Shown: piece after piece, positions 5,016 to 49,843 of the stretch
Layout of the letters: each line of letters opens with the position of its first letter
How positions within the stretch are numbered: the first letter of the stretch is position 1
Origin: Octopus vulgaris
Lineage: Eukaryota
DNA: 64,000 nucleotides
NCBI GenBank assembly: GCA_951406725.2
Contig: OX597823.1
Coordinates: 28,086,001 to 28,150,000 of the forward strand
Direction of reading: 5' to 3'
Notes under the pieces: generated by a model
What the model was told of the DNA's origin: nothing
The model's database searches: none
Seen by the model: only the letters and a program-made list of their open reading frames with translations
Program-made: the position numbers and the translations under genes

Positions 5016-5203
5016 ACAAGATAGATCGCTAGCCACTACACATTCTTTATTTTCTCTCTTTGTTTCTTTCTGTGTTCCTTTCTATGGTAGAGCGTAGGCT
5101 CGAAACGTTAAAGTCTTTTTCACTTCCCGAGCGTTATGCTTATACATCTGTTTGTTGTCTACACCACCTGTCTTCGTCTTTTGTTTTTTTTGTGAATTCT
5201 CCC
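5016..5203 (+). mobile_element. Short interspersed non-coding repeat with a hammerhead-like fold (putative PLE pLTR derivative); other copies at 21165-21298, 27122-27273 and 44425-44552
   Basis: The block ttcccgagcgtta...ctgtttgttgt...cacctgtcttcgtcttttgtt...aattctc recurs four times (partial at 44.4 kb). The gagc-gtag-gctc-gaaacgt motif lies at 5090-5108. Confidence 0.6.
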
Positions 5204-7124
<1,921 letters not shown>

Positions 7125-7134
7125 GACGTATATA

Positions 7135-7870
7135 CTGGGTGTTCGGGCTAAATTTGATGATTTTTCGTCGCTTATTTTTCAGCAACAGGTTGATGTATTC
7201 GTGAACATTTCGCGGCGTTGGAGAGCATAAAGTTTAAGTTTGTAGTTGAGAAGGAATTAGTTGATATGTAGGGCTGGAAGTCATCAGAATACTGGAAAAA
7301 GGGTTACCTGTATCATAAGGAATCGCACCGGGTGTCAAAATTCTGACATCATCACTGCTGCTCAGTGTAGCGTGAATATAGCAAAGGCTGTATGATATGA
7401 CTGGGGAGGCTGCAACGGAGACTACGAAACCGTGGCCTGCATGAAAGAACACAAGAAGGGTGTAGTTCCAGTGAAGGTGACGTCATACCGCCATACAACT
7501 TTGAACAGGGCCATAGACTGAATTCAGACTGCTATGTGAAGCTACTGGAGACTGTGATCGAGCCCTAGCTGGAGAGGCATATGTGTGGCAGTAGGATTCG
7601 GTTCCTTGTTATACCTCCGGAAAGAGTCAGATGTGGTTGTTGGAGAATTTCTACGACATTACCAGCGCCAATTTCTGGCCTCCTAATACTCCAAATTGTA
7701 ACTGCATGCTTTAGTATGTGAGGGGGGAGGCTGAGAAGAGTATTAACCAGTCTGTTTGCAACACCAACGACGAGCTAGTTCGAAGATCTACCTAGGGATA
7801 CAATGAGGAACGCAGGCGTTTGGTTCCGAAGCCACTTTGAGGTACGAAGTAGTAGAAACTGAAGGCGGCA
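7135..7870 (+). mobile_element. Decayed IS630-Tc1-mariner transposon (maT/DD37D-like)
   Basis: TA followed by a TIR-like start ctgggtgttcgggctaaatt. Translation AYVWQ*DSVPCYTSGKSQMWLLENF...FWPPNTPNCNCML*YV matches the WQQDGAPAH / WPPNSPDLNPLDY pattern. Confidence 0.65.
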
Positions 7871-8144
7871 GCTTCGAGTTAGCTGTCGTATTCCACCTAT
7901 AATCTTCAACCTGTATACATATATACGTACATATTTCGAGGCCACGTTTTCGTTCATTTCTCATATATATATATACCTACGAACATGGATTTTTTATAAT
8001 TTTATGAGTAAGAATCGAAACAATTGAATATGATTTGTGTTTAATATTTATCAATTTATTATATTATTAACATAATACTATAATATATTATGTTAATAAA
8101 TTTTTATTTTTGTATGAACAATTGTATATCTCTATTTTCTTTTC

Positions 8145-8199
<55 letters not shown>

Positions 8200-8604
8200 T
8201 ATATATATATATATATGCATATATATATATGCTATCGTTCTATTATTGCAGTCCCAATTTGAATTCTAACTGTTGGCCAGTTCGTCCCAAAGTTCGTATC
8301 TCAACGTAAAATTAACGAAGCAAATATCATTTATCTTCCCCTTGATCTCTGACGTCATCTGACAAACGCCACCCATGACGGCGTGAATCAGCCAAGTTTT
8401 ACCTGCTAGAAATAGCAACCCAAATACTTTTAAATCAGATCCCAATGCTGGATGTTCAAGAACCAAATGAAGGACCATTCTGATTCCAGAAAGGTATATA
8501 TCTATGGTGGAACAAATGTAGACTGAGATACAGGGGTCTCAGACGGACAGATAAAATTTTGCTTTTATTGCACACACGCACAAACACACAGGCACAAAAA
8601 TACA

Positions 8605-8663
<59 letters not shown>

Positions 8664-8668
8664 GTATA

Positions 8669-8820
8669 TGACAGGCTTCTTTAATTTTCTGTCTTACAAA
8701 TCCACCCACACGGCTTTGGTCGGCGCGTAGCTATAATATAAGACACTTGTCCAAGGTGCGATGCAGTGGGACTGAACCCGGAAACATGTGGTTGGGAAGC
8801 AAGCTTGCCACTCCTGTGCC
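8669..8820 (-). mobile_element. SINE family A, 5' part
   Basis: Reverse complement of the head seen at 20247 (caggagtggc...ccgggttcagtcccactgc...accttggacaagtgtctt). Confidence 0.85.
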
Positions 8821-8949
8821 TATATATATGTATGTGTATATATATATATAGTTAATCCAAACATGAAACACAAAGAGAAAACACAACAACGCGAGGACGT
8901 GGAACTACTATAGTATTATTAGACGCTCAAGAAAGAAGGAAAGAATATA

Positions 8950-8981
<32 letters not shown>

Positions 8982-9016
8982 CACATATATATATATATAT
9001 ATACATATATATTTAT

Positions 9017-9092
<76 letters not shown>

Positions 9093-9098
<6 letters not shown>

Positions 9099-9722
9099 GT
9101 TATCGCCATACTAATATGGCATTCTTATAAAAATAAGAATAAAGCTGTCCGCTTATTAGCTCCATGTTCGAAGGTTATATGGATACAGTTTGTGTATCAA
9201 ATAGCTAACTTAAGGCGATGGCCTCATGGAGCTAATAAGCGGACAGCTTTATTCTTATTTTTATAAGAATGCCATATTAGTATGGCGATAACTATTATTT
9301 TCCGGGAACGCTGCCGTGTTCTCTTTTAGAGAGACTTAGTAATTTTAATATTTCTATTATTGAAAACAAGTGGATGTATTCCACCGAAACTAGGTAAATA
9401 AAACCTTCGAACAGAGATTGTGGGAAGCGACACCTACTGGTCTGACTACGCTGCATTGAAAAGGGGCAATACCCCGAAACGCGTCTGTAGCTGTCGGTCA
9501 AGTAGTGTGGAGCGACTGACCTCCCTTGTTCGAAGGTTATATGGATACAGTTTGTGTATCAAATAGCTAACTTAAGGCGATGGCCTCATGGAGCTAATAA
9601 GCGGACAGCTTTATTCTTATTTTCATAAGAATGCCATATTAGTATGGCGGTAACTATTATTTTCCGGGAACGCTGCCGTGTTCTCTTTTAGAGAGACTTA
9701 GTAATTTTAATATTTCTATTAT
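9093..9722 (+). mobile_element. Hammerhead-bearing non-coding retroelement: 362-bp monomer in partial tandem plus 5' inverted segment
   Basis: 9165-9360 is repeated at 9527-9722. 9093-9166 is the reverse complement of 9225-9298. (TA)n lies on both flanks. Confidence 0.85.
9450..9491 (+). ncRNA. Minimal type I hammerhead ribozyme-like motif with variant core
   Basis: gctgca-TTGAAAA-gggg caata cccc-GAAA-cgcg-TC-tgtagc. Helix I is gctgca/tgtagc, helix II is gggg/cccc, helix III is the palindrome acgcgt, and the site is GUC. The core deviates from CUGANGA at two positions. Confidence 0.65.
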
Positions 9723-10593
9723 ATATATATATATACATATATGCATGTAGTTAGACAGACGGATATATATACATGGGTGTTTAAAATTTAAAAGTGGTGG
9801 GAGGCAGAATTCGTGGGACATTATAGTAGTGTCCTCAATAGACAATTGGTGCCGCAGAAAAAAAATTTTATTGGTTAGGACGAAATACTGCAGGATTGTT
9901 GCGTTTACAAACACTTATAGATTAAGTATGTGATTTACAAATACACATAATTTGATAATGTTTACATAATCGAGCTGCCTCGAACACAAAATTTGAAAAT
10001 ACATACATACACACACATATACATAGACACATGTACATATACACGTGTACAAATGTATGTGAATGTATATATGTATGTGTCGTATATATTCGGTTTCAAG
10101 GCAATCTCACATATAATGCTATCTCACTCTAACTGTATGAAACCCGATATTCTCGGTTAAATTTCCCGCATTATACACGAATTAATTCAGTATATAACAA
10201 TGAGAGAATTGCTTGCAAAACCAAGCAGATTAAAATCAAACAATGCTAAAAGTACGTGCAAACCTAGCATCGGGGTCAACGGCTTTCTTTCAAAAGTGCG
10301 CAGGGATATAAAAATAATCGAGCAGCATATAGTGGTTGTAAAACCACTAAGATCGATAGACAAGCTTGTGCTCTTTAGTTGTGGTGAAAGTAGAATTATT
10401 TTGAAGAGAAGCAGAGCAAATAAAAACGTGGCAGGTCAAGCCAATATAATCTTTGATCTATAACCATTTGTAATACCTAATTATCGTCGTATTTCTTTAG
10501 CGTTCAGTTATTTTGCATATAACCAAGTTAAGCAATTGCGATGCTGCTTAAACCATATCTTTCATTCATGATTGAAGTATTGTTGCTTGCAAG

Positions 10594-10845
10594 GGCGGTG
10601 AGCTGGCAGAAACGTTAGCATCCCGAGCGAAATGCTTTGCGGTATTTCGTCTGCCGTTACGTTCTGAGTTCAAATTCCGCCGAGGTCGACTTTGCCTTTC
10701 ATCCTTTCGAAGTCGATTAAATAAGTACCAGTTACGCACTGGGGTCGATATAATCAACTTAATCCGTTTGTCTGTCCTTGTTTGTCCCCTCTGTGTGTAG
10801 CCCCTTGTGGGCAATAAAAAATAAGAAACGTTAGCACGCCGGGCT
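10594..10845 (+). mobile_element. SINE family B (tRNA-like head, Nin/Deu-like core)
   Basis: gagttcaaattcc B-box-like motif followed by ggtcgactttgcctttcatcctttc...taagtaccag. Further copies near 50815-51270 and 54040-54440. Confidence 0.8.
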
Positions 10846-11222
10846 TGCTTTCATTTGTCTTTTATTTGTGTCGGATGTTGGACTGCAGCCATACTGGGCA
10901 GCACCTTGAAGGGTTTTCAGTCGAACCAATCGACCCCATTAATTACTCTTTTATGTTTAGTACTTTTTCTAACGTTTGTCTTTGCTGAACTATCAAGTTA
11001 CGGGGACGTGGACGAAACAACACCGGTTCTCATGAAGTGTGTGTGGATCTGATGCAGACATAAGCACACATACAAAGACAAACACGCACACAAACGCACA
11101 CAGATGATTAAACACACACATACATATATACTTACATACGTTATCTATCCATCCATCCATCCATCCATCCATCCATCCATCCATCCATCCATCCATCCAT
11201 ACATCCATCCATCTATCCATCC

Positions 11223-11302
<80 letters not shown>

Positions 11303-12120
11303 GAATACGAAAGTCTTCGACAGCGTGGAAATCAACGCAGTGCTGCCAGCTCACGGGAAACAAGGTGTGACGATGCAGTATGTCACTCTCCCGAGGGAGG
11401 CGAATACCGAGTGCATAACGAATGTGACCCTGTTATCTTCAGCAGTGAATGTTCCAACGGAGAAAGGTGTCAAACAAGGAGACACCATCATTCTCCTAAG
11501 CTCTTCACGGCGTGTCTCCAGATAGTCAATCAAGACATGAACTAGAACGGAGGCATAAGGATAAACGGAGAACTGCTCATCCAGCTAAGATTTGCGGACG
11601 ACATAACGCTGATAGCGTAGAACACCAATCAACTACAGACCATGCTATACAAACTGGATTCCAGGGGTTCGGCTGTCAGCCTGAAGATCAACCGTAACAA
11701 AACCAAGTACATATGGTCTGAGGGCGTACCGATCGGTCGCTTAACAGTCAGAGGTACTGAAATAGAATGGGTGAGCACCTATATGTATCTTGTTGAAGAA
11801 ATGACTGTAGGGCGAGAGATAGAGAATGAAACCACGCGAAGGGTAAGAGCAGGATGGAGAGCATTCAACTCGGTGAAAGATGTGCTGAAGGCGAACCTAT
11901 ACAAGGCAACTCACACCAATCTCTTTAACATCACAGTCTTGCCTACAATGCTATACGCATGTGAGACTTGGGCATTGACGAAGAGAGAACAACAACACCT
12001 GCTTACGGCGCAGAAAGCCTTGGAAAGGTCGATGCTGGGAATCTCGCTAAAAGATCACACCCGGAACGAAGAGATCAGAGATTGAACTGGAGTGAAGGAC
12101 GTCGTCGATGGAGACCGCCT
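11303..12120 (+). pseudogene. RTE-clade LINE reverse transcriptase fragment (frameshifted)
   Basis: KVFDSVE, KGVKQGDTI, LRFADDITLIA, LKINRNKTKY and VLPTMLYACETWALTK motifs spread over ORFs 11325, 11512 and 11642. Confidence 0.88.
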
Positions 12121-12147
12121 TGCGAATATAACAGCTTGGATATGGTA

Positions 12148-12189
<42 letters not shown>

Positions 12190-12368
12190 AAATGGGAAAA
12201 ATTCGTCATCAGCGACGGAATATCCCATACTCTGAGATTTCCCAGAAACAGCTGTAAGACTTTGAAGTTTTTCAAATAATAATGTATATGACTTGAGATG
12301 TTTGCCTTGCCTTAACGTTTGCTGTCCTCTTTAACAATTATACATTATATATATATATATATATATAT

Positions 12369-13170
12369 ACTAGCAGTATTGCCCGGCTCGTGCACTCGTG
12401 CGTTCTATGCACGCGCGAATTAAGCTAAACTTGGATGAAGTTCAATCAAAATTCAATTATTTTGGTTTTAAAATCAAGCATTTAATGCCCTCTATTTTTG
12501 CGCTTATGTGTTCCATTTCCTCAATAGGAAGTACGTAGAAGCGTTTCATGAATTTTGTTGATCAAATAATTGCATTGTTGAATTATTCTTTTAGATCAGT
12601 TTTTCTCAATGGGGATTTCAGGGGGAGAGTTTCAGGGAGTCGCTGGCGACGTATTGTGATGATCAAAAATCCGGCCTGCTAAAATTTGGTTAAAGTGATT
12701 CAAATTGCAGACTCAACGCAAAATGGTCACATTTAATTCAAAGCGTTAAAAATGTTATGAAAACAATTGGTGTGTGTTCACAAAGTCCAAACGATTAATA
12801 CGAAAAAACCCTCCAGGCTACATCCCGAAAATTCATTTCTTTGCCGAATTTCTACAATGTTTACGGCGATTCGTTTTTATATCTTGATTTTATATTTTTC
12901 ACGCAATTTACGCATACATGCACGCGTGGTGAACACAGTTCACGTCAAACAGCTGACTGAGTAAAGTTCACTATTCAATGCATGGGATAAGGCCTAAACA
13001 AACACATTATCGATTTTTGCACTTGCGAGATAAATTTCGGAACAGAAATAGCGCAGTTCAATTTTCATTCGCCTAAACTTTAAGTGACCCATTTTTGGCG
13101 GTTCTACAATTTGTTGGCTAGGAGGAGATGTGCCGGGAAGTTAAACACACAGATACACACAGACACACAA
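12369..13170 (-). mobile_element. Possible non-autonomous Helitron
   Basis: The minus-strand end reads ...gccgggcaatactgCTAGt, a Helitron-like CTAG 3' terminus next to a GC-rich segment. A similar end lies near 41858-41900. No coding capacity is seen. Confidence 0.4.
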
Positions 13171-13575
13171 AGAGTGTCTGTGTGGTAAGTAGCTTGCTAA
13201 CCAATCACATGGTTCCGGGTTCAGTCCCACTGCGTGGCATCTTGGGCAAGTGTCTTCTGCTATAGCCCCGGGCTGACCAATGCCTTGTGAGTGGATTTGG
13301 TAGACGGAAACTGAAAGAAGCCTGTCGTATATATGTATATATGTATAAGTGTGTGTGTATATGTTTGTGTGTCTGTGTTTGTCCCCCTAGCATTGCTTGA
13401 CAACCGATGCTGGTGTGTTTACGTCCCCGTCACTTAGCGGTTCGGCAAAAGAGACCGATAGAATAAGTTCTGGGCTTACAAAGAATAAGTCCCGGGGTCG
13501 ATTTGCTCGACTAAAGGTGGTGCTCCAGCATGGCCGCAGTCAAATGACTGAAACAAGTAGATGAGTAAATGAGTA
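13171..13575 (+). mobile_element. SINE family A, near full length
   Basis: tRNA-like head, internal (TG)n, and 3' ...gctccagcatggccgcagtcaaatgactgaaacaag. Highly similar to 20247-20649. Confidence 0.92.
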
Positions 13576-13580
13576 AATGA

Positions 13581-13644
<64 letters not shown>

Positions 13645-13786
13645 AATATAAGAGAGTGGTCACTATGTGGCTCACTCTAGCACTAGTAAATCCAAAAGGT
13701 TTCAACCACAAAAATACATGTTTCCCATGAAATTCAGTACGATTGTTAGCTCACACGAACAGGGCAAATAAAAAATAACAAAAATA

Positions 13787-13881
13787 CAGATTATTTTGGG
13801 ACAATTGTTTCGCTATTAATGAATTAAATGTAATTTTACTCACAAAAAACTCACTTGTAGCTCCTCAGCCAAAACTATCTG
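13787..13881 (-). ncRNA. Type I hammerhead ribozyme (inverted-arm copy)
   Basis: Reverse complement of 14455-14549. Confidence 0.88.
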
Positions 13882-14454
13882 GATGAAATCCACTCAATCC
13901 CACGCCAGATTTTACCATAACGATAAATACACGTGTGGTTCAATTGATTACATCCGACGTTATAATTCAAATGCCCCTACCAACAGCGCGCCAAACTTTC
14001 ACGGAAACAAATACTACATTTAGAAATAAATGTAGCATAATTATTATTAATTAATAAGGGTGAGAGAATTAGATACTAATTTAATAGTATACCTATTCAA
14101 CACCAAGTGGCCCAGTGCCCTAAGAAACCTGGATTATTATAATATTTTATAATATATTATAATATTTTATACATTATAATATATTATAAAATATTATAAT
14201 AATCCAGGTTTCTCGCGGCACTGGGCCACTTGGTGTTGAATAGGTATACTATTAAATTAGTATCTAATTCTCTCACCCTTATTAATTAATAATAATTATG
14301 CTACATTTATTTCTAAATGTAGTATTTGTTTCCGTGAAAGTTTGGCGCGCTGTTGGTAGGGGCATTTGAATTATAACGTCGGATGTAATCAATTGAACCA
14401 CACGTGTATTTATCGTTATGGTAAAATCTGGCGTGGGATTGAGTGGATTTCATC

Positions 14455-14549
14455 CAGATAGTTTTGGCTGAGGAGCTACAAGTGAGTTTTTTGTGAGTAA
14501 AATTACATTTAATTCATTAATAGCGAAACAATTGTCCCAAAATAATCTG
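14455..14549 (+). ncRNA. Type I hammerhead ribozyme with extended helix II
   Basis: cagata gttttgg-CTGAGGA-gcta-[42 nt, itself paired]-tagc-GAAA-caattg-TC-ccaaaat aatctg. The core is canonical, helix III is the palindrome acaattgt, and predicted cleavage is after C14536. Confidence 0.9.
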
Positions 14550-14903
14550 TATTTTTGTTATTTTTTATTTGCCCTGTTCGTGTGAGCTAACAATCGTACT
14601 GACTTTCATGGGAAACATGTATTTTTGTGGTTGAAACCTTTTGGATTTACTAGTGCTAGAGTGAGCCACATAGTGACCACTCTCTTATATTTATTTTTGT
14701 ATAAAATATTATAATATATTATAAAATATTATAATAATCCAGGTTTCTTGGGGCACTGGGCCACTTGGTGTTGAATAGGTATACTATTAAATTAGTATCT
14801 AATTCTCTCACCCTTATTAATTAATTCATATATATACATATATATATATGTATGTATATATATACATACATACTTGAATGTGAAATTCCTTGAGAGTTCT
14901 GTT

Positions 14904-15000
14904 CATCCTGATGGTGGTGGTGGTGGTGGGGGGGCTTGCCGAGATGCGCTTTAACTTGCAATCGGACCGCAGCAGTGAACTCCCGAAATGGCCATAGGTG
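14904..15000 (+). ncRNA. Degenerate hammerhead interrupted by a (TGG)n expansion
   Basis: catc-CTGATG(g)-(tgg)n-ggg...ccc-GAAA-tggcca-TA-ggtg, with palindromic helix III atggccat. Confidence 0.45.
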
Positions 15001-15317
15001 TGGATTTTGACTTTCCATTTCTTGAAACTCTCTTACACTCCTTGGATATCGAACCTAACATGGATTACTTCATTTTTAAGAACTGACCATTTTGATATAT
15101 TTTTAATCGATGGGTAAATTTTTTAGCCAATTGATATGTGTTAATAATTCTTTTTAACCACCTACTATAATTATTTTTATATTACATGGAAAAATGCGAG
15201 CAAGGGAAATAATATTCCTAAGATTATAAACCTGGAAAAATACAGGACAAGTTATTAGACTTGGAAAAGTTCAACACAAGTTATTACATCTGGTAAAGTA
15301 CAGAAATTTTTAATGGA

Positions 15318-15390
15318 GAGTCAAAACTCCCAATTTATTCATCAGTCTCGTTTTCAGTGAAATTGGTGGATAAGTTGGGGGTTTTGACTC
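15318..15390 (+). other. 73-nt hairpin (pre-miRNA-sized foldback)
   Basis: 29 contiguous pairs, 5 of them G-U on the + strand. Confidence 0.6.
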
Positions 15391-15450
15391 ACTTTTCATG
15401 TAAGCTGGTGTTTCGTGTACCGTCTATTATAATTATACATATATATATAT

Positions 15451-15737
15451 CGAGGTTACCGTGGTCTTTTCCGTAGGCTTTTCTTTCCATGGGTAAACTT
15501 CACCTGTCCTCCCCTTTACACTTCATATTGACATTTCTGTGATAACGATCCCTATTGATCCAATTTTGTCCACCCCCACTTTTTTTTAATCCCACCCCCT
15601 TTTTTGTCCTCTTTCTTTCCATTTACGATCCCTTTTGATCGAAAACCAAATCCCCTTCTTTTACCCACAAAAGAAAAGCTCTACCTTGTAATTTTGTCCT
15701 GTCTGTGTGCAGCCCTGTGTGGATAATAAAGTAACAT
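15451..15737 (+). mobile_element. Tx1-like LINE, 3' UTR-only copy (copy 4)
   Basis: Matches 6709-7010 (cgaggttaccgtggtc...agccctgtgtggataataaag). Flanked by (TA)n. Confidence 0.9.
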
Positions 15738-15777
15738 ATATATATATTTATCTATGTATGTATACAAACAACAAAAC

Positions 15778-16076
15778 AAGTGGCACTCTGACGGTTACGA
15801 TGATGACCATTCCAATTGATATGATCAACTGGTCACGTGCTTTTGGCTGAGTACTCTAAAGACAGGCATACCCTTAATGTAGTTCCCAGAGAGGTTCGTG
15901 GCGACACGGGATGTGACAAGGATCGCCCTTTGAATTACGAGTGGAACTCATTTTTGTCAGTTGAGTGGACTGGAACAACGTGAAATAAAGTATCTTGCTC
16001 AAGGACATAACGTGTCGCCGGGAATTGAACTCACAAAATTATGATTGTGAGCTGAATACCTTAATCACTAAGCCTT
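15778..16076 (-). mobile_element. SINE family C (diverged)
   Basis: Homologous to 48361-48750 (gtggcactc...ggttacga...cccttaa.gtagttc). A tRNA-like head lies at the right end on the minus strand. Confidence 0.7.
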
Positions 16077-16278
16077 ATGATTAAAAGAAAAAAACAAACA
16101 AACCAAAAACGAAGAAAGAAACATTTAGAAAGAGTAAATAAAAGAACGAAAAGAGCGACAGGGCAGGAGAATGAATGGTAGAGAGAAAGAGCAAAAGATA
16201 GACAGACAGATAGATGGATGGATAGATAGACAGACAGACAAATAAATATTTAGTTAGATAAATAGACAGATATATAAT

Positions 16279-16330
<52 letters not shown>

Positions 16331-16607
16331 AAGATAGATTGACAGACACAGACAAAGGTAGATTAGGCAGAGCCAGAAATTAACGGTAGGAAAATATGGG
16401 GGGGAATAGAAAGAAATTTATTAATGTTTTCTGTACCCTTGCCTCATAAATTTGGAGAGCAAAATATGAAAGAAAATAATAGATTTCTGACTAATAAACT
16501 AGATTAGGTAGCATGTGTTGGCGCGATCACATGGCCAGGATACCAACATGTGACTAACTATAGTAGAACTCTAGTTAATTCATTAGCGGACAAGAATTTT
16601 ACAAGAT

Positions 16608-16654
<47 letters not shown>

Positions 16655-16815
16655 TACATACATACATACATACATACATACATACATACATACATACATA
16701 CATACATAGATCTCATTTACTTAATAATGGAATGTTTCTACTCCTAATGATGCATTTAAAGTAATGATCTCTCTGCATTTAATGGATCCTCAATACGAAC
16801 GCACGCTTTCGCAAA

Positions 16816-16894
<79 letters not shown>

Positions 16895-17189
16895 ATATAT
16901 ATGGATGCGCACGCATAAATATATACACTCATTGTTTATGTATACATTCATAATTCATATTCCTGTATATGTAAATATTTTTGCATGTTTGTATGCAAGT
17001 ATGTTTGTCAGTTATGAGTATGGTCGTGTGCATAACTAGCGCTTTGGAATTCACTTTGTAAGCATGTGGATTAGGTTTCAATTTCTCTATGCGTAGAAAT
17101 GCGTAGGAAACAAAACGCTAAAGCCTGCCTCCTGTATATATATGGATACAAATGGATAGATTGATAGATAAATAGATAGATATAGATAT

Positions 17190-17227
<38 letters not shown>

Positions 17228-17229
<2 letters not shown>

Positions 17230-17453
17230 TCTTTTATTCTTTTATTTGTTTCAGTCATTTGACTGCGGCCATGCTAGAGCACCGCTTTAGTCGAGCAAAC
17301 CGACCCTAGGACTTATTCTTTGTAAGCCTAGTACTTATTCTATCGATCTCTTTTGCCGAACCACTAGATGACGAGGACGCAAACACACCAGCATCGGTTG
17401 TCAAGCGATGTTGGGAGAGTGGGACAAACACAGGCACACAAACATATACATAC

Positions 17454-17488
<35 letters not shown>

Positions 17489-17640
17489 CATGACAGGCTT
17501 CTTTCAGTTTCCGTCTACCAAATCTACTCACAAGGCTTTGGTCGGCCCGAGGCTATAGTAGAAAACACTTGCCCAAGGTGCCATGCACTGGGACTGAACA
17601 CAGAGCCATGTGGTTGGGAAGCAAGCAGCTTACCACACAG
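17228..17640 (-). mobile_element. SINE family A
   Basis: Reverse complement of the 20247 copy. Confidence 0.9.
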
Positions 17641-17658
17641 CGAATCAATCCTGCGTCT

Positions 17659-17689
<31 letters not shown>

Positions 17690-17824
17690 CATACATACAT
17701 ACATGCATGCATGCATACATACATACATACATACATGCATGCATACATACATACATACATACATACATACATACATACATACAAACACACACACACATAT
17801 ATATATATAAATGGATGAATGAAT

Positions 17825-18915
17825 TATTCTTTGTTTACCGTTAACTAGGAAAATTCAATAACCAGTTACCAGGGTAGCAAAATTCACGCAATTAACAAGG
17901 ATGTAGCGACCTATTTAAAGGTAGAAACTCCGGGTAAATGTGCAGTAATTTGTATAGTATAAGTAAATAAATGGAGTTGAATGCAGGTGTTATTCAAAGT
18001 CTTTTACTTTCGACATTTGTTTCGAAGACAACATTGGTTTTATTCCAAAGGAATAAAAGGTGTAAAATAATGTAATCTTCTCATCAGGAAAGAAAGAGAA
18101 CCTATCTCAACAACAAGGCATTATAACAATTTTGATGACTGCATAAATGATAAACAGAACACTATTAAGTATTTAAAAAAATTGTTATGAGATCCGACGT
18201 CAAAGGCAGACCCTAGGAAGAGAAGGGGTAAAGAAATAATAAGTAGAGAACAAATAAAGATGGATATATTGGTTGAAAAAATGTTTAAAGGTTTGGAAGT
18301 AGATTTCTATTATAATGTCTTGTTGTTGAGATAGGTTCTCTTTTTTTCCTGATGAGAAGATTGCATTATTTAACACAGTTTATTCATTTGGAATAAAACC
18401 AATGTTGTCTTGGAAGTAGATTTCTCTATTGAAGTAAAGTGCAAGGTGAACTAAATGTTCAAACTATACAGACTGGTAAAATCACTTATATGAGCTAAAG
18501 GTATGTTTCTGCCAGTGCTTACATTTGTAAGATCACTCTAGAAGTGTGTTAACAGGGTGATTCTTAGCGAAGAGAATATGGAAGAGTTGAGAGTTGCAAA
18601 TGTTACAAAAACTTTTGTCCTTGTCATAAGGGAAAGGGATGGACAGGATGAACCAATCTAACTTAAAATCCTTATTGTTGTCTTTAAGATACCAAACCAA
18701 TTTACTTAGCCCTGTGCTATAAGGTTTACTGCTATCCCTAAATGAAGAATAATTATTGAAAATTATCTTAGATAACTGGGAAGAGGACACGCCAATATAG
18801 AATTCTTAATCTTAGAATTATTAGACATAAATTTAATTCTGTTGAGGGTTATCCTCAGAGACCAAAACTATGTTTTCCTAGTAATAGGAAATATCTGCGT
18901 TCAACTCCTTTTATT

Positions 18916-18923
<8 letters not shown>
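17825..18923 (-). mobile_element. Penelope-like element 3' portion: GIY-YIG remnant (18484-18830) plus hammerhead-containing pLTR, with an internal inverted pLTR piece
   Basis: Translation FYIGVSSSQLS...TGLSKLVWYLKDNNKDFKLDWFILS...CNICNSQ...YKCKH. 18310-18415 is the inverse of 18021-18126. The pLTR is homologous to 60630-61100. Confidence 0.85.
18007..18092 (-). ncRNA. Type I hammerhead ribozyme with extended helix II
   Basis: The minus strand reads ctttc-CTGATGA-gaaga-[47 nt]-tcttc-GAAA-caaatg-TC-gaaag, with a canonical core and 5-bp helices I and II. Confidence 0.85.
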
Positions 18924-19009
<86 letters not shown>

Positions 19010-19010
<1 letters not shown>

Positions 19011-19622
19011 CATAATTAAATCTCAGAATGAGATTGAAACAGTAATCGCTCGATAATGTAAAGTATAGAAGCCATCTCATCATGGCTAACCACATTGGGG
19101 AGGGGGTTGTTACTGTAGCTTTATAGCCCCAAGAGATCTTCGTCTCTAAACAACAATATAGGAATGGCCCTGATAGGCCATTCGACTCACTAGAAAGAGC
19201 AGCCAAACTCAAACCGCTAAATAGTTGTAATTCTGAAATTGGAAGAGAAATAAAAGCATTTACCCCTTTTCATCTCTGGACTATGCATAGTTTCGACAAA
19301 CTTAGGTAAACAAATAAATTAAATTAAATTAAATTTGCTTACAACTGGCGAGTCTCATCATTAATTTAATTAATTTGTTTACCTAAGTTTGTCAAAACTA
19401 TGCATAGTCCAGAGATGAAAAGGGGTAAATGTTTTTATTTCTCTTCCAATTTCAGAATTACAACTATTTAGCGGTTTGAGTTTGGCTGCTCTTTCTAGTG
19501 AGTCGAATGGCCTATCAGGGTCATTCCTATATTGTTGAACGTATATTATATAGTCTTTTACTATTTTTTCTTTCTCACTAGAGCGCTGGTAGCGGAGAAT
19601 TTCTTTGCTACCCTGATATTTA

Positions 19623-19625
<3 letters not shown>
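19010..19625. mobile_element. Non-coding element with 177-bp inverted arms and a truncated hammerhead
   Basis: 19151-19327 is the inverse of 19361-19537. The minus strand reads TGATGA-gac...gtc-GAAA-ctatgcatag-TC-cagag (19274-19360). (TA)n lies on both flanks. Confidence 0.75.
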
Positions 19626-19667
<42 letters not shown>

Positions 19668-19975
19668 TCATGTATACACGTATACACACACGCACACACA
19701 TGTTTATATGCATATGTTGACGTTTATTATATTATGCCCTATGCAAGCATAATTTAATGAAGTTCTCCCCTGACGAAACGTTGAGAATCTGCAGGCAAAG
19801 GTATTATGAAGAACCACTGGAGAAGATGCAATTAGCCAATTTTCAAAACGTTCGTGAGGCAGAAAGGGAACGAAGGTCATCTTGTATTCATCATACTTTT
19901 CCCTCGCTCTCACACACATATGCTCTCACGCGCGCACACACATATACACACACGAATATATATCTCTGTCCTGAA

Positions 19976-20041
<66 letters not shown>

Positions 20042-20246
20042 AAGGAATACAAAATTTGGGACAATAAGGCAAAACATCCAGACAGATGATACAAAAAAAG
20101 AAGCATCTGTCTGGATGGTTTGTTGTCCCATTTTTGTTTCATCTAACTGTGAGGATGTTTTACGTTCTTGTCCCATGTTTTGTATTCCTTTTTATATTCA
20201 TATGGCGGCGTACGTACACTTTGGTCTCTCTTATATATATACAATA

Positions 20247-20649
20247 GGCGCAGGAGTGGCTGTGTGGAAAGTAGCTTGCTAAACAACCACATGGTTCCGG
20301 GTTCAGTCCCACTGCGTGGCATCTTGGGCAAGTGTCTTCTGCTATAGCCCCGGGACGACCAATACCTTTTGAGTGGATTTGGCAGACGGAAACTGAAAGA
20401 AGCCTGTCGTATATATATATATATATGTATGTGTGTCTGTTTGTGTGTCTGTGTTTGTCCCCCTAGCATTGCTTGACAACCGATGCTGGTGTGTTTACGT
20501 CCCCGTCACTTAGCGGTTCGGCAAAAGAGACTGATAGAATAAGTACTAGGCTTAGAAAGAATAAGTCCCGGGGTCGATTTGCTCGACTAAAGGCGGTGCT
20601 CCAGCATGGCCGCAGTCAAATGACTGAAACAAGTAAAAGAGTAAAAGAG
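20247..20649 (+). mobile_element. SINE family A, full length
   Basis: ggcgcaggagtggctgtgtgg A-box-like and gggttcagtcc B-box-like motifs, conserved body, and a gtaaaaga tail repeat. Confidence 0.92.
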
Positions 20650-20656
20650 TATACAT

Positions 20657-20703
<47 letters not shown>

Positions 20704-21100
20704 GAGTGGCTGTGTGGTAAGTAGTTTACTTACCAACCACATGCTTCCGAGTTCAGTCCCACTGCGTGGAACTTTGGACAAGTGTCTTCTACTATAGCCA
20801 CCGACCGACCAACCAAAGCCTTGTGAGTGGATTTGGTAGACGGAACCTGAAAGAAGCCTGTCGTATATCTGTATGTGTGTGTATATGTTGTGCATCTGTA
20901 TCTGCCCCTCCAGCATCGCTTGACAACCGATGCTGGTGTGTTTGGGTCTCCGTAACATTAGCGGTTCGGCAATAAGTACTAGGATGGAATAAGTACTAGG
21001 CTTACAAAGCGTAAGTCCTGAGGTCGATTTGATTCGACTAAAGGCGGTGCTCCAGCATGGCCGCAGTCAAATGACTGAAACAAGTAAAAGAATAAAAGAA
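20704..21100 (+). mobile_element. SINE family A, second adjacent copy
   Basis: Diverged neighbour of the 20247 copy. Confidence 0.9.
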
Positions 21101-21116
21101 CATATATATATGTATG

Positions 21117-21164
<48 letters not shown>

Positions 21165-49114: not shown

Positions 49115-49843
49115 CTGGTTCGGTCCGGACCTCCAAATGGAGAACTGGGGAGAAATAACGACTAGAGTGGCTAGGCATGCCGTGGTTGATGATGCGCAGA
49201 TATGCGCTGAGACTGCGACATTTCCGGCGCTTCATAGACAACGGTGAACAGGTGTGGTCGCTTTTTGTGCGACGCGCTTTCCCGCAGCTCGTCTCTTTGG
49301 CCGAACTACAGTCGTGGATCAAACAGAGGCCGAGGCTAGGCGAATGGCACCGCGAGTGCCGCGTTGCTCTCAAGCAACTCTGCCGTCCGGGACCAAACTT
49401 GTGCGACTTCATTACAACAAAAGCGTTCTATAGAGGATTAGTGGAGGGGAGGTGCGACGACGTTCTCGGGCAGAATCTGGGCGTCGAAGAGGAACACCTG
49501 ACCCGCCTGTTCAGGACAACTTTCGGGTCGGTACCTATGGACAATCACCAAAGATCCCTGGCCTGGCATTACCTGTTCGGGATAAGCTCTACAGGCACGG
49601 TTCGAGACACACTGGACTGACTTTCCCGAGATGCAGTCAGAACGACGTAACTTCCTTTAAAATAAATTTGTCTCTGTGATACACGATCCCTTTTGATCGC
49701 TTTTTTTCCCGATCCCTTTTGATCGGAATTTTACATTTGTTTCCTTTTTTGTTCCTTTTTTCTTTTTTCATCTTCGAAAAGAAAAGCTCTACATTTGTAT
49801 TTGTCCCCTCTGTATTCAGCCGTGTGTGGCCAATAAAGAAAGT
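49115..49843 (+). mobile_element. Tx1-like LINE, internally deleted copy 3
   Basis: Matches 5461-5520, then 5743-6240, then the 3' UTR (gtgtgtggccaataaagaaa). (TCTA)n-type arrays lie on both sides. Confidence 0.92.

What the first reader, a model, noticed from the sequence alone, without database searches (positions are those of the whole stretch)
13642..14825. 1.05-kb near-perfect palindrome built from a 535-bp non-coding monomer with an intact hammerhead on each strand
Seen: arms 13642-14163 and 14173-14694 differ at only a few bases. The right arm continues into a second round of the same unit (period 535 bp). The left arm, including the 9-bp spacer, is an almost complete monomer in a shifted permutation. 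The canonical ribozyme core is CUGAGGA/GAAA/GUC and there is no ORF. Inference: more-than-unit-length and permuted copies are what reverse transcription of a circular or concatemeric RNA would leave, so this looks like a young retrozyme-like insertion. Only one ribozyme is present per strand, so this locus alone could not excise a monomer by double cleavage. Read-through transcription would give ~500 bp of dsRNA, a possible ADAR or siRNA substrate.
Basis: partly seen in the sequence, partly recalled or inferred. Interest (0 to 1): 0.85.

Follow-up and report, generated by a model that had tools for sequence, protein, structure and literature searches.

The report
Hammerhead mini-retroelement inserted head-to-head
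This 1-kb palindrome is one insertion of a young, high-copy, protein-free repeat that carries a predicted self-cutting hammerhead RNA, and its mirror shape is likely the routine footprint of Penelope-like retrotransposon enzymes, whose two-armed insertions in this genome almost always end at two different fixed sites, one per arm.

Summary
The palindrome, the 535-bp period and a type I hammerhead motif on each strand are confirmed. The locus belongs to a young, dispersed, non-coding family (771-1,291 candidates per search; tandem arrays up to 5.2 units). It fits an animal non-LTR retrozyme, that is, a non-autonomous Penelope-like element (PLE).

Copies are not freely permuted. 3' ends fall at two fixed sites 130 nt apart (A and B), next to (TA)n (125 of 130 ends), and 5' ends vary. 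Of 87 loci, 40 are head-to-head palindromes with their own junctions, so this is not a foldback artefact.

In 38 of 39 independent two-armed loci one arm ends at A and the other at B. The same holds in an older subfamily (12 of 12) and in a coding Hydra-type PLE (28 of 29). The two arms share a haplotype (5 of 286 discordant comparisons, against 36% between loci). The likely mechanism is a PLE enzyme dimer priming both ends of a (TA)n break at two sites of one RNA.

Inverted pLTRs and a one-sided tail are in print; I did not find the strict pairing there. A circular RNA, cleavage and the exact partner element were not shown.

The parts
13582..13641 (.). (TA)n microsatellite, left part of the likely target site
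   Evidence: sequence; 125 of 130 family 3' ends abut a TA run
13642..14173 (-). left arm: 532 nt of the unit (u526 round to u522; u1 = 14173), outer 3' end at fixed site B
13787..13881 (-). type I hammerhead motif of the left arm; predicted cut 13800/13799
   Evidence: mirror of 14455-14549; 100% over 116 nt
14164..14202 (.). head-to-head junction (9-nt spacer 14164-14172) inside the unit's AT-rich hairpin
14173..14825 (+). right arm: 653 nt = 1.22 units, outer 3' end at fixed site A (u118-119)
14455..14549 (+). type I hammerhead motif: core 14468-14474, stem II with long loop, GAAA 14525-14528, helix III with palindromic loop, GUC 14534-14536; predicted cut 14536/14537
   Evidence: stem I covaries between young and old subfamilies
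14687..14698 (+). site B (u515-526), read through in this arm; a fixed 3' end in 64 of 130 family arms
14699..14825 (+). 'tail' of about 128-130 nt between sites B and A; site A is the 3' end in 66 of 130 arms
14826..14870 (.). degenerate TA-rich run, right part of the likely target site
   Evidence: sequence

Best explanation
The locus is one insertion of a young, non-coding 535-bp repeat with a predicted type I hammerhead ribozyme, likely copied into a (TA)n microsatellite by the enzyme of a Hydra-type Penelope-like retrotransposon acting in trans. Shown: the family, its two fixed 3' ends (B at u522-526, A at u118-119), variable 5' ends, TA context, head-to-head arms with one A and one B end, and a shared haplotype between arms. 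Inferred: (1) a more-than-unit RNA (an uncut multimer transcript or a re-ligated circle) is bound by the RT/GIY-YIG protein; (2) the protein, probably a dimer, cuts both strands in (TA)n; (3) each DNA end primes reverse transcription on the same RNA, one at site A and the other at site B; (4) both cDNAs stop at variable points and are joined 5' to 5', giving a palindrome. Here both cDNAs ran about one unit or more (532 and 653 nt) and met in the AT hairpin, which makes this an unusually long palindrome. Family identity about 0.92; the two-site, one-RNA mechanism about 0.65.
For: Family: 1,291, 830, 771 and 913 candidates in four DNA searches, of which only 39-40 were scored each. Tandem arrays at period 535 reach 2,767 nt. 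Ends: 130 arms end at A (66) or B (64); 125 of 130 abut TA runs. Pairing: 39 A+B, 1 B+B and 0 A+A among 40 two-armed loci. Older, about 78%-identical subfamily: 12 of 12 clean pairs A+B among 29 loci. Coding 717-aa family: 28 of 29 pairs, chosen only by endonuclease hits, are A+B, with 1 ambiguous and none homotypic (P = 6e-8). Arms differ at 5 of 286 comparisons over 11 common polymorphic sites, tandem units at 4 of 541, different loci at 35.7%. In 9 of 40 loci neither arm contains the other. Co-resident coding PLEs carry Hydra motifs (RW[K/R], DKT, CxCX5C, CxxC, CxH). The 980-1090-aa family has a hammerhead of the same build and two 3' ends about 120 nt apart at (TA)n. In vitro, a PLE protein cuts and extends both strands, starts at two internal RNA sites that bound the tail, and is predicted to be a dimer (PMC11167929).
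Against: No autonomous parent was found. The best match to a coding element is 66% over 129 nt at the hammerhead, and only 150 of 6,136-21,124 candidates were scored per family or protein search. The tail is 130 nt, not the published 30-40 nt. One locus (L045) is B+B. Inner ends of the two arms coincide within 25 nt in 11 of 40 loci against 5.1 expected (permutation P = 0.007), which suits fold-back for some loci. The shared haplotype could come from later gene conversion, and linked sites are not independent. The in vitro study saw no difference in start site between strands. All loci were top-scoring matches to the window copy, so the sample is biased to young and long copies. Neither transcription nor cleavage was shown.
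Confidence: 0.7

Rival explanations
1. Same family and enzyme, but the second arm is made by fold-back (self-priming) of the first cDNA or of an antisense template, not by a second priming event on the RNA. Self-priming on an antisense template was proposed for head-to-head Penelope palindromes in PMC3846280.
For: It explains the shared haplotype of the arms and the excess of coinciding inner ends (11 of 40 against 5.1 expected; 3 exact). The window's junction lies in an AT hairpin.
Against: Simple copying needs one arm to contain the other. In 9 of 40 loci each arm has at least 10 nt that the other lacks, 23-130 nt in 6 of them; in L181 the arms do not overlap at all. It does not by itself explain why the second arm stops at the other fixed site in 38 of 39 events.
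Confidence: 0.17
2. Template form only: the RNA copied is a hammerhead-cut, re-ligated 535-nt circle copied in rolling-circle fashion. This is compatible with the best explanation and concerns one step of it.
For: The monomer folded as a circle is strongly self-paired (-146 kcal/mol; z = -6.3 against 60 shuffles). Tandem units are nearly identical within a locus. 78 of 130 arms read through the cut site and 45 exceed one unit. One run guessed to be RNA holds the unit in a single 565-nt contig, one period plus 30 nt, the length a closed loop would give at word size 31 (X10).
Against: Linear transcripts of genomic multimers (9 arms over 1,000 nt) would give the same copies. Rare variants shared by adjacent units in L033 and L041 point to a multimer source or later amplification. 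The X10 contig was not shown to be cyclic or to be RNA, only 128 nt of it were laid, and it comes from a different organism label than most holders.
Confidence: 0.4
3. The unit is only the truncated 3' end (pLTR) of a coding PLE that was not sampled, with no life of its own.
For: Truncated ends of coding Hydra-type elements form similar palindromes in this genome (L107, L077, L037).
Against: 45 arms run past one full period back into the unit and arrays reach 5.2 units. In 87 young and 29 older loci no PLE reading frame joins the unit; the PLE protein hits there are separate neighbours.
Confidence: 0.05
4. The palindrome is an assembly foldback artefact.
For: No contig from the other runs bridged this locus's own junction; no raw or long reads were available.
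Against: The arms differ at 4 sites, have different lengths and different unique flanks. 40 of 87 loci show such inversions, each at its own junction and obeying the A+B rule. Independent runs hold head-to-head joints at other positions, 13 of the 15 listed in run X15, at depth 27-92.
Confidence: 0.02

Closest known systems
Animal non-LTR retrozymes (Cervera & de la Pena 2020, PMC7229834; Li, Clavereau & Pollet 2026, bioRxiv 10.64898/2026.07.22.740005)
   Same: Non-coding repeat, one type I hammerhead per unit with a short palindromic helix III, GC under 50% (32.5%), tandem and solo copies, predicted highly self-paired monomer, co-resident PLEs proposed as the source of enzymes.
   Different: Unit of 535 bp, above the 150-450 bp of the 2020 paper but inside the 51-972 bp of the 2026 preprint. 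Mostly dispersed short insertions with mapped PLE-type ends. Circular RNA and cleavage not shown here.
Insertion architecture of endonuclease-bearing PLEs (Arkhipova et al. 2013, PMC3846280; Craig et al. 2021, PMC8557442)
   Same: Fixed 3' end, 5' truncation, partial tandems, an inverted 5'-truncated copy joined head-to-head, a tail on only one of the inverted ends, microsatellite targets. Hammerheads 100-700 bp apart on opposite strands are noted in PMC4209133.
   Different: No reading frame. Tail of 130 nt (about 70 and 120 nt in the coding families here) instead of 30-40 nt. The papers call the tail optional or often one-sided; here it is an almost strict A+B rule.
Hydra clade of PLEs (PMC8557442)
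   Same: (TA)n targets and canonical hammerheads. Coding elements with the diagnostic motifs are abundant in this genome and show the same two-end pairing.
   Different: The unit encodes nothing and matches no sampled Hydra-type 3' region beyond 66% over 129 nt. No tree was built.
Poseidon element PAc in vitro (Frangieh et al. 2024, PMC11167929)
   Same: Two internal start sites bounding the tail, both strands cut and extended, predicted dimer, uncut RNA used as template.
   Different: PAc start sites are adjacent, AC-rich and not homologous to the target. Here they are 130 nt apart and AU-rich, so they could pair with a TA primer (inference).

Membership tests
Animal non-LTR retrozyme | type I hammerhead motif in each unit | tested here: met
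   motif at 14455-14549; stem I UUUUGG/CCAAAA in young copies and GUUCGG/CUGAAC in 23 of 30 old-set matches; Rfam gave no hit
Animal non-LTR retrozyme | no protein coding | tested here: met
   longest stop-to-stop frame 66 codons; no PLE protein match within the finding
Animal non-LTR retrozyme | tandem copies with at least two consecutive hammerhead units | tested here: met
   met by the family (9 arms over 1,000 nt, up to 5.2 units), not by this locus
Animal non-LTR retrozyme | no LTRs; GC below 50% | tested here: met
   no terminal direct repeats in the locus maps; GC 32.5%; primer-binding site not searched for
Animal non-LTR retrozyme | unit of 150-450 bp (typical range in the 2020 paper) | tested here: not met
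   535 bp; within the 51-972 bp reported in the 2026 preprint, so not treated as defining
Animal non-LTR retrozyme | highly self-paired monomer | tested here: met
   prediction only: z = -6.3, 68% paired; substitutions against the old subfamily 14-15% in paired and 22-25% in unpaired positions, with 4-5 two-sided compensations but 15-20 one-sided breaks
Animal non-LTR retrozyme | expressed as circular RNA | tested here: inconclusive
   contigs only, RNA status guessed; one 565-nt contig is a hint
Animal non-LTR retrozyme | self-cleavage activity | not testable with these tools
   needs in vitro transcription; 5' ends are not enriched at the cut site (4 of 123, P = 0.80)
Non-autonomous PLE insertion | fixed 3' end, variable 5' truncation, inverted head-to-head copy | tested here: met
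Non-autonomous PLE insertion | tail on one of the two ends | tested here: met
   38 of 39 independent two-armed loci; 130 nt, longer than published
Non-autonomous PLE insertion | (TA)n target | tested here: met
   125 of 130 ends
Non-autonomous PLE insertion | 3'/pLTR homology to an autonomous family | tested here: inconclusive
   66% over 129 nt to the hammerhead region of a 980-1090-aa Hydra-type family; other sampled families gave nothing beyond short or AT-rich hits
Autonomous PLE | RT plus GIY-YIG reading frame | tested here: not met
Hydra clade (co-resident coding elements, not the unit) | RWK, DKT, CxCX5C linker, CxxC and CxH, C-terminal endonuclease | tested here: met
   L247, L263 (RWR variant) and L354-L357 against the list in PMC8557442 section 11; no phylogeny built

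The most novel reading that the evidence does not exclude
PLE integration is an asymmetric two-ended reaction. One enzyme dimer holds a single RNA, here a 535-nt hammerhead-made circle, and its two subunits must start at different sites (A and B), one on each end of the cut target. The tail, the inverted pLTR and the partial tandem would then all be products of one reaction, and this family would be a direct genomic record of a circular retrozyme RNA hijacking a Hydra-type PLE.
Probability: 0.3. Interest if true: 0.72.

Novelty: new member of a known kind. Interest (0 to 1): 0.44.

Why it matters
The element itself is a further member of a described class, and the palindrome is ordinary for that class. 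Two points add value. First, the end mapping ties a retrozyme-type repeat to PLE enzymes by insertion signature (target, tail, inversion), a link so far argued from shared ribozymes, co-occurrence and pLTR similarity. Second, the near-strict A+B pairing in three families, with arms of one haplotype, turns an open question named in PMC8557442 (how PLE tandem and inverted structures form) into a sharp test. An apparently intact, very young 717-aa coding family is at hand for that test. Many long inverted repeats could also give dsRNA on read-through, but that is untested.

Tried and rejected
Rfam: no hammerhead hit at gathering threshold over the window or at E<=1 over 13500-19700; only hairpin-type miRNA models below cut-off.

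Parent element: not found among GIY-YIG loci, two Hydra-type families or the in-window Hydra-like family. A search with the L064 fragment was not run to completion.

Hammerhead-cut linear monomer as template: rejected. 5' ends are not enriched at the cut (4 of 123 in u355-375 against 4.4% exposure, P = 0.80; u365-390, P = 0.09), and 78 of 130 arms read through it, though the sample favours long copies. A stop site at B or the AT hairpin: not significant (20 of 123, P = 0.09).

Expression and editing: no RNA holder on record was listed. A>G differences in the RNA-guess runs mostly also stand in the large runs presumed to be DNA, so they show nothing about editing. No contig bridged this locus's junction, which proves nothing. 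Summed depth in those runs was not used as a copy number.

Rows dropped: L186 (same flanks as L068) before all counts; L044 and L068 counted as one event; L295 left out (same place as L294). In one search, 5 young and 3 old loci were unclassified by the motif rule. One search, with a different end caller, gave 39 A+B and 1 B+B among the young loci. By eye two of the three old ones (L278, L283) are A+B; they are not counted.

Literature: 7 searches found no description of this family or of strict end pairing. Repbase, Dfam, subscription papers (e.g. Arkhipova 2006) and all supplements were not seen and may hold either. Earlier scan notes: nothing by sequence or in this genome.

Full report
Observation. 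The window lies in a 2.8-Gb, microsatellite-rich animal assembly (G000, C10:28086001-28150000); a cephalopod is my recalled, untested guess. The palindrome is as described: arms 13642-14163 and 14173-14694 differ at four bases around a 9-nt spacer, and 14708-14825 repeats the start of the right arm at period 535. With u1 = 14173, the right arm runs u1 to u118 of the next round (653 nt) and the left arm, on the minus strand, u526 round to u522 (532 nt). Both outer ends abut TA runs. No frame exceeds 66 codons.

Ribozyme. The + strand has a full type I hammerhead motif with the predicted cut at 14536/14537, and the left arm an identical copy. Rfam does not detect it, probably because loop II is long (inference). 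The catalytic fold is 2.7 kcal/mol above the predicted minimum, which lacks the 2-bp helix III. Such short palindromic helices are reported to work as dimers (PMC4209133). Conservation supports the motif: stem I is UUUUGG/CCAAAA in young copies and GUUCGG/CUGAAC in an older subfamily, with core, stem II and helix III kept (these counts come from partly overlapping loci). Activity is untested.

Family. Four DNA searches gave 771-1,291 candidates each, of which 39-40 were scored. I mapped 87 loci including the window, all top-scoring and so biased to young copies. Full-length matches are 97-99% identical to the window copy, and the median rare-variant rate is 0.3%. Arms reach 2,767 nt, and 45 of 130 exceed one unit. 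Public runs under five organism labels hold the unit. An older subfamily at 78-80% identity has the same build. PLE proteins hit these loci only as separate neighbours.

Ends. Copies are not free permutations of a circle. The 130 arms with a called end stop at site A (u118-119; 66 arms) or site B (u522-526; 64 arms), about 130 nt apart, and 125 abut a TA run. A few arms with other ends, some apparently from internal deletions, fall outside this count (L056, L176, L191). 5' ends are spread over the unit, with no excess at the ribozyme cut. Forty loci have two arms head-to-head, each with its own junction. Independent runs hold such joints at further positions. This is the architecture published for endonuclease-bearing PLEs: 5' truncation, partial tandems, an inverted 5'-truncated copy and a tail often at one end only (PMC8557442, PMC3846280).

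The pairing rule. Of the 40 two-armed loci, 39 have one A and one B end, one has B+B and none A+A. Counting L044 and L068 once gives 38 of 39 (P = 7e-11 for independent choice, 3e-6 allowing for search bias). The older subfamily gives 12 of 12 clean pairs. A coding 717-aa Hydra-type family, with pairs chosen only from opposed endonuclease hits, gives 28 of 29, with one ambiguous. At 11 common polymorphic sites the two arms of a locus disagree in 5 of 286 comparisons and tandem units in 4 of 541, against 35.7% between loci. In 9 of 40 loci neither arm contains the other, so simple fold-back copying cannot make them. Against a pure two-primer model, inner ends coincide more often than chance (11 of 40 against 5.1), and gene conversion could also homogenise arms.

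Partner. The genome is rich in coding PLEs that end at (TA)n. Two families bear Hydra motifs. The 980-1090-aa family has a hammerhead of the same build (long loop II; the same helix III in many copies) and two ends about 120 nt apart. It matches the unit only at 66% over 129 nt, so it is a relative and not a proven parent. Sampling was shallow: 150 candidates scored per search.

Mechanism. Most likely a more-than-unit RNA is bound in trans by a Hydra-type protein, which cuts both strands of a (TA)n run. One end primes at A and the other at B on the same RNA, and the cDNAs are joined at their variable 5' limits. This rests on the genomic pattern plus the in vitro behaviour of a Poseidon protein (both strands cut and extended, two internal starts, predicted dimer, uncut RNA used; PMC11167929). 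Whether the RNA is a circle is open. The monomer folds strongly as a circle (z = -6.3), with modest support from comparison with the old subfamily, and one RNA-guess run holds a 565-nt contig. Genomic multimers could equally supply linear templates. A read-through transcript of this locus would pair over about 520 bp and bury its one sense ribozyme (inference), so the locus is more likely a dead-end product than a source.

Comparison and verdict. The family meets the sequence criteria for animal non-LTR retrozymes (PMC7229834; bioRxiv 10.64898/2026.07.22.740005, which argues these are non-autonomous PLE derivatives) except the typical size range; circular RNA and cleavage are untested. It is a new member of a known kind. 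What my seven searches did not find in print is the near-strict A+B pairing with one haplotype, seen here in three families; the one-sided tail itself is known qualitatively.

What I read: the preprint, parts 1-3 of 5; PMC11167929, parts 1-2 of 4; PMC8557442, passages and section 11; PMC4209133, part 1 of 4 and passages; PMC7229834, parts 2-3 of 6 and passages; PMC3846280, passages; no supplements. Two earlier scan notes on other genomes agree in kind but are unchecked and not used as evidence. Interest 0.44.

Noticed in passing
window 17810-18760 (-): Truncated Hydra-like PLE: endonuclease remnant 18757-18485 (32% to L263, one stop), a canonical type I hammerhead with core at 18087 and predicted cut near 18012, ending at a TA run. 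The family has 3,480 candidates, about 91% identical.
   Followed up: partly
window 19151-19537: Second near-perfect inverted repeat (177-nt arms, 98%, 33-nt spacer) just upstream of that fragment; no hammerhead noticed in it; origin unexplained.
   Followed up: no
L354-L357, L326-L353: Very young coding Hydra-type family: 717-aa frame, 150 near-identical endonuclease hits among 21,124 candidates, a hammerhead variant with CCGAAGA core read by eye, 3' ends about 70 nt apart, frequent head-to-head pairs.
   Followed up: partly
L099-L114: Young PLE family with a 781-aa RT plus GIY-YIG frame and an overlapping upstream frame of up to 479 aa, ending at (TA)n; relatives carry a U3-A8 hammerhead variant. 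Neptune-like by its zinc finger (recalled label, untested).
   Followed up: partly
L213:4736-5450; L266-L295: Older subfamily of the same unit, 78-80% identical, with a shorter AT hairpin and 1,675 candidates; same architecture.
   Followed up: yes
run X10, record 1: A single 565-nt contig (one period plus 30) holding the unit in a run guessed to be RNA; possibly a closed loop.
   Followed up: no
L044, L068, L186: One insertion present at three places on contig C1 with a shared junction and flank, likely a segmental duplication.
   Followed up: partly
window 5033-6574 (+), 49159-49620 (+): Related coding remnants that look like the C-terminal part of a LINE protein (label recalled, not searched).
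   Followed up: no
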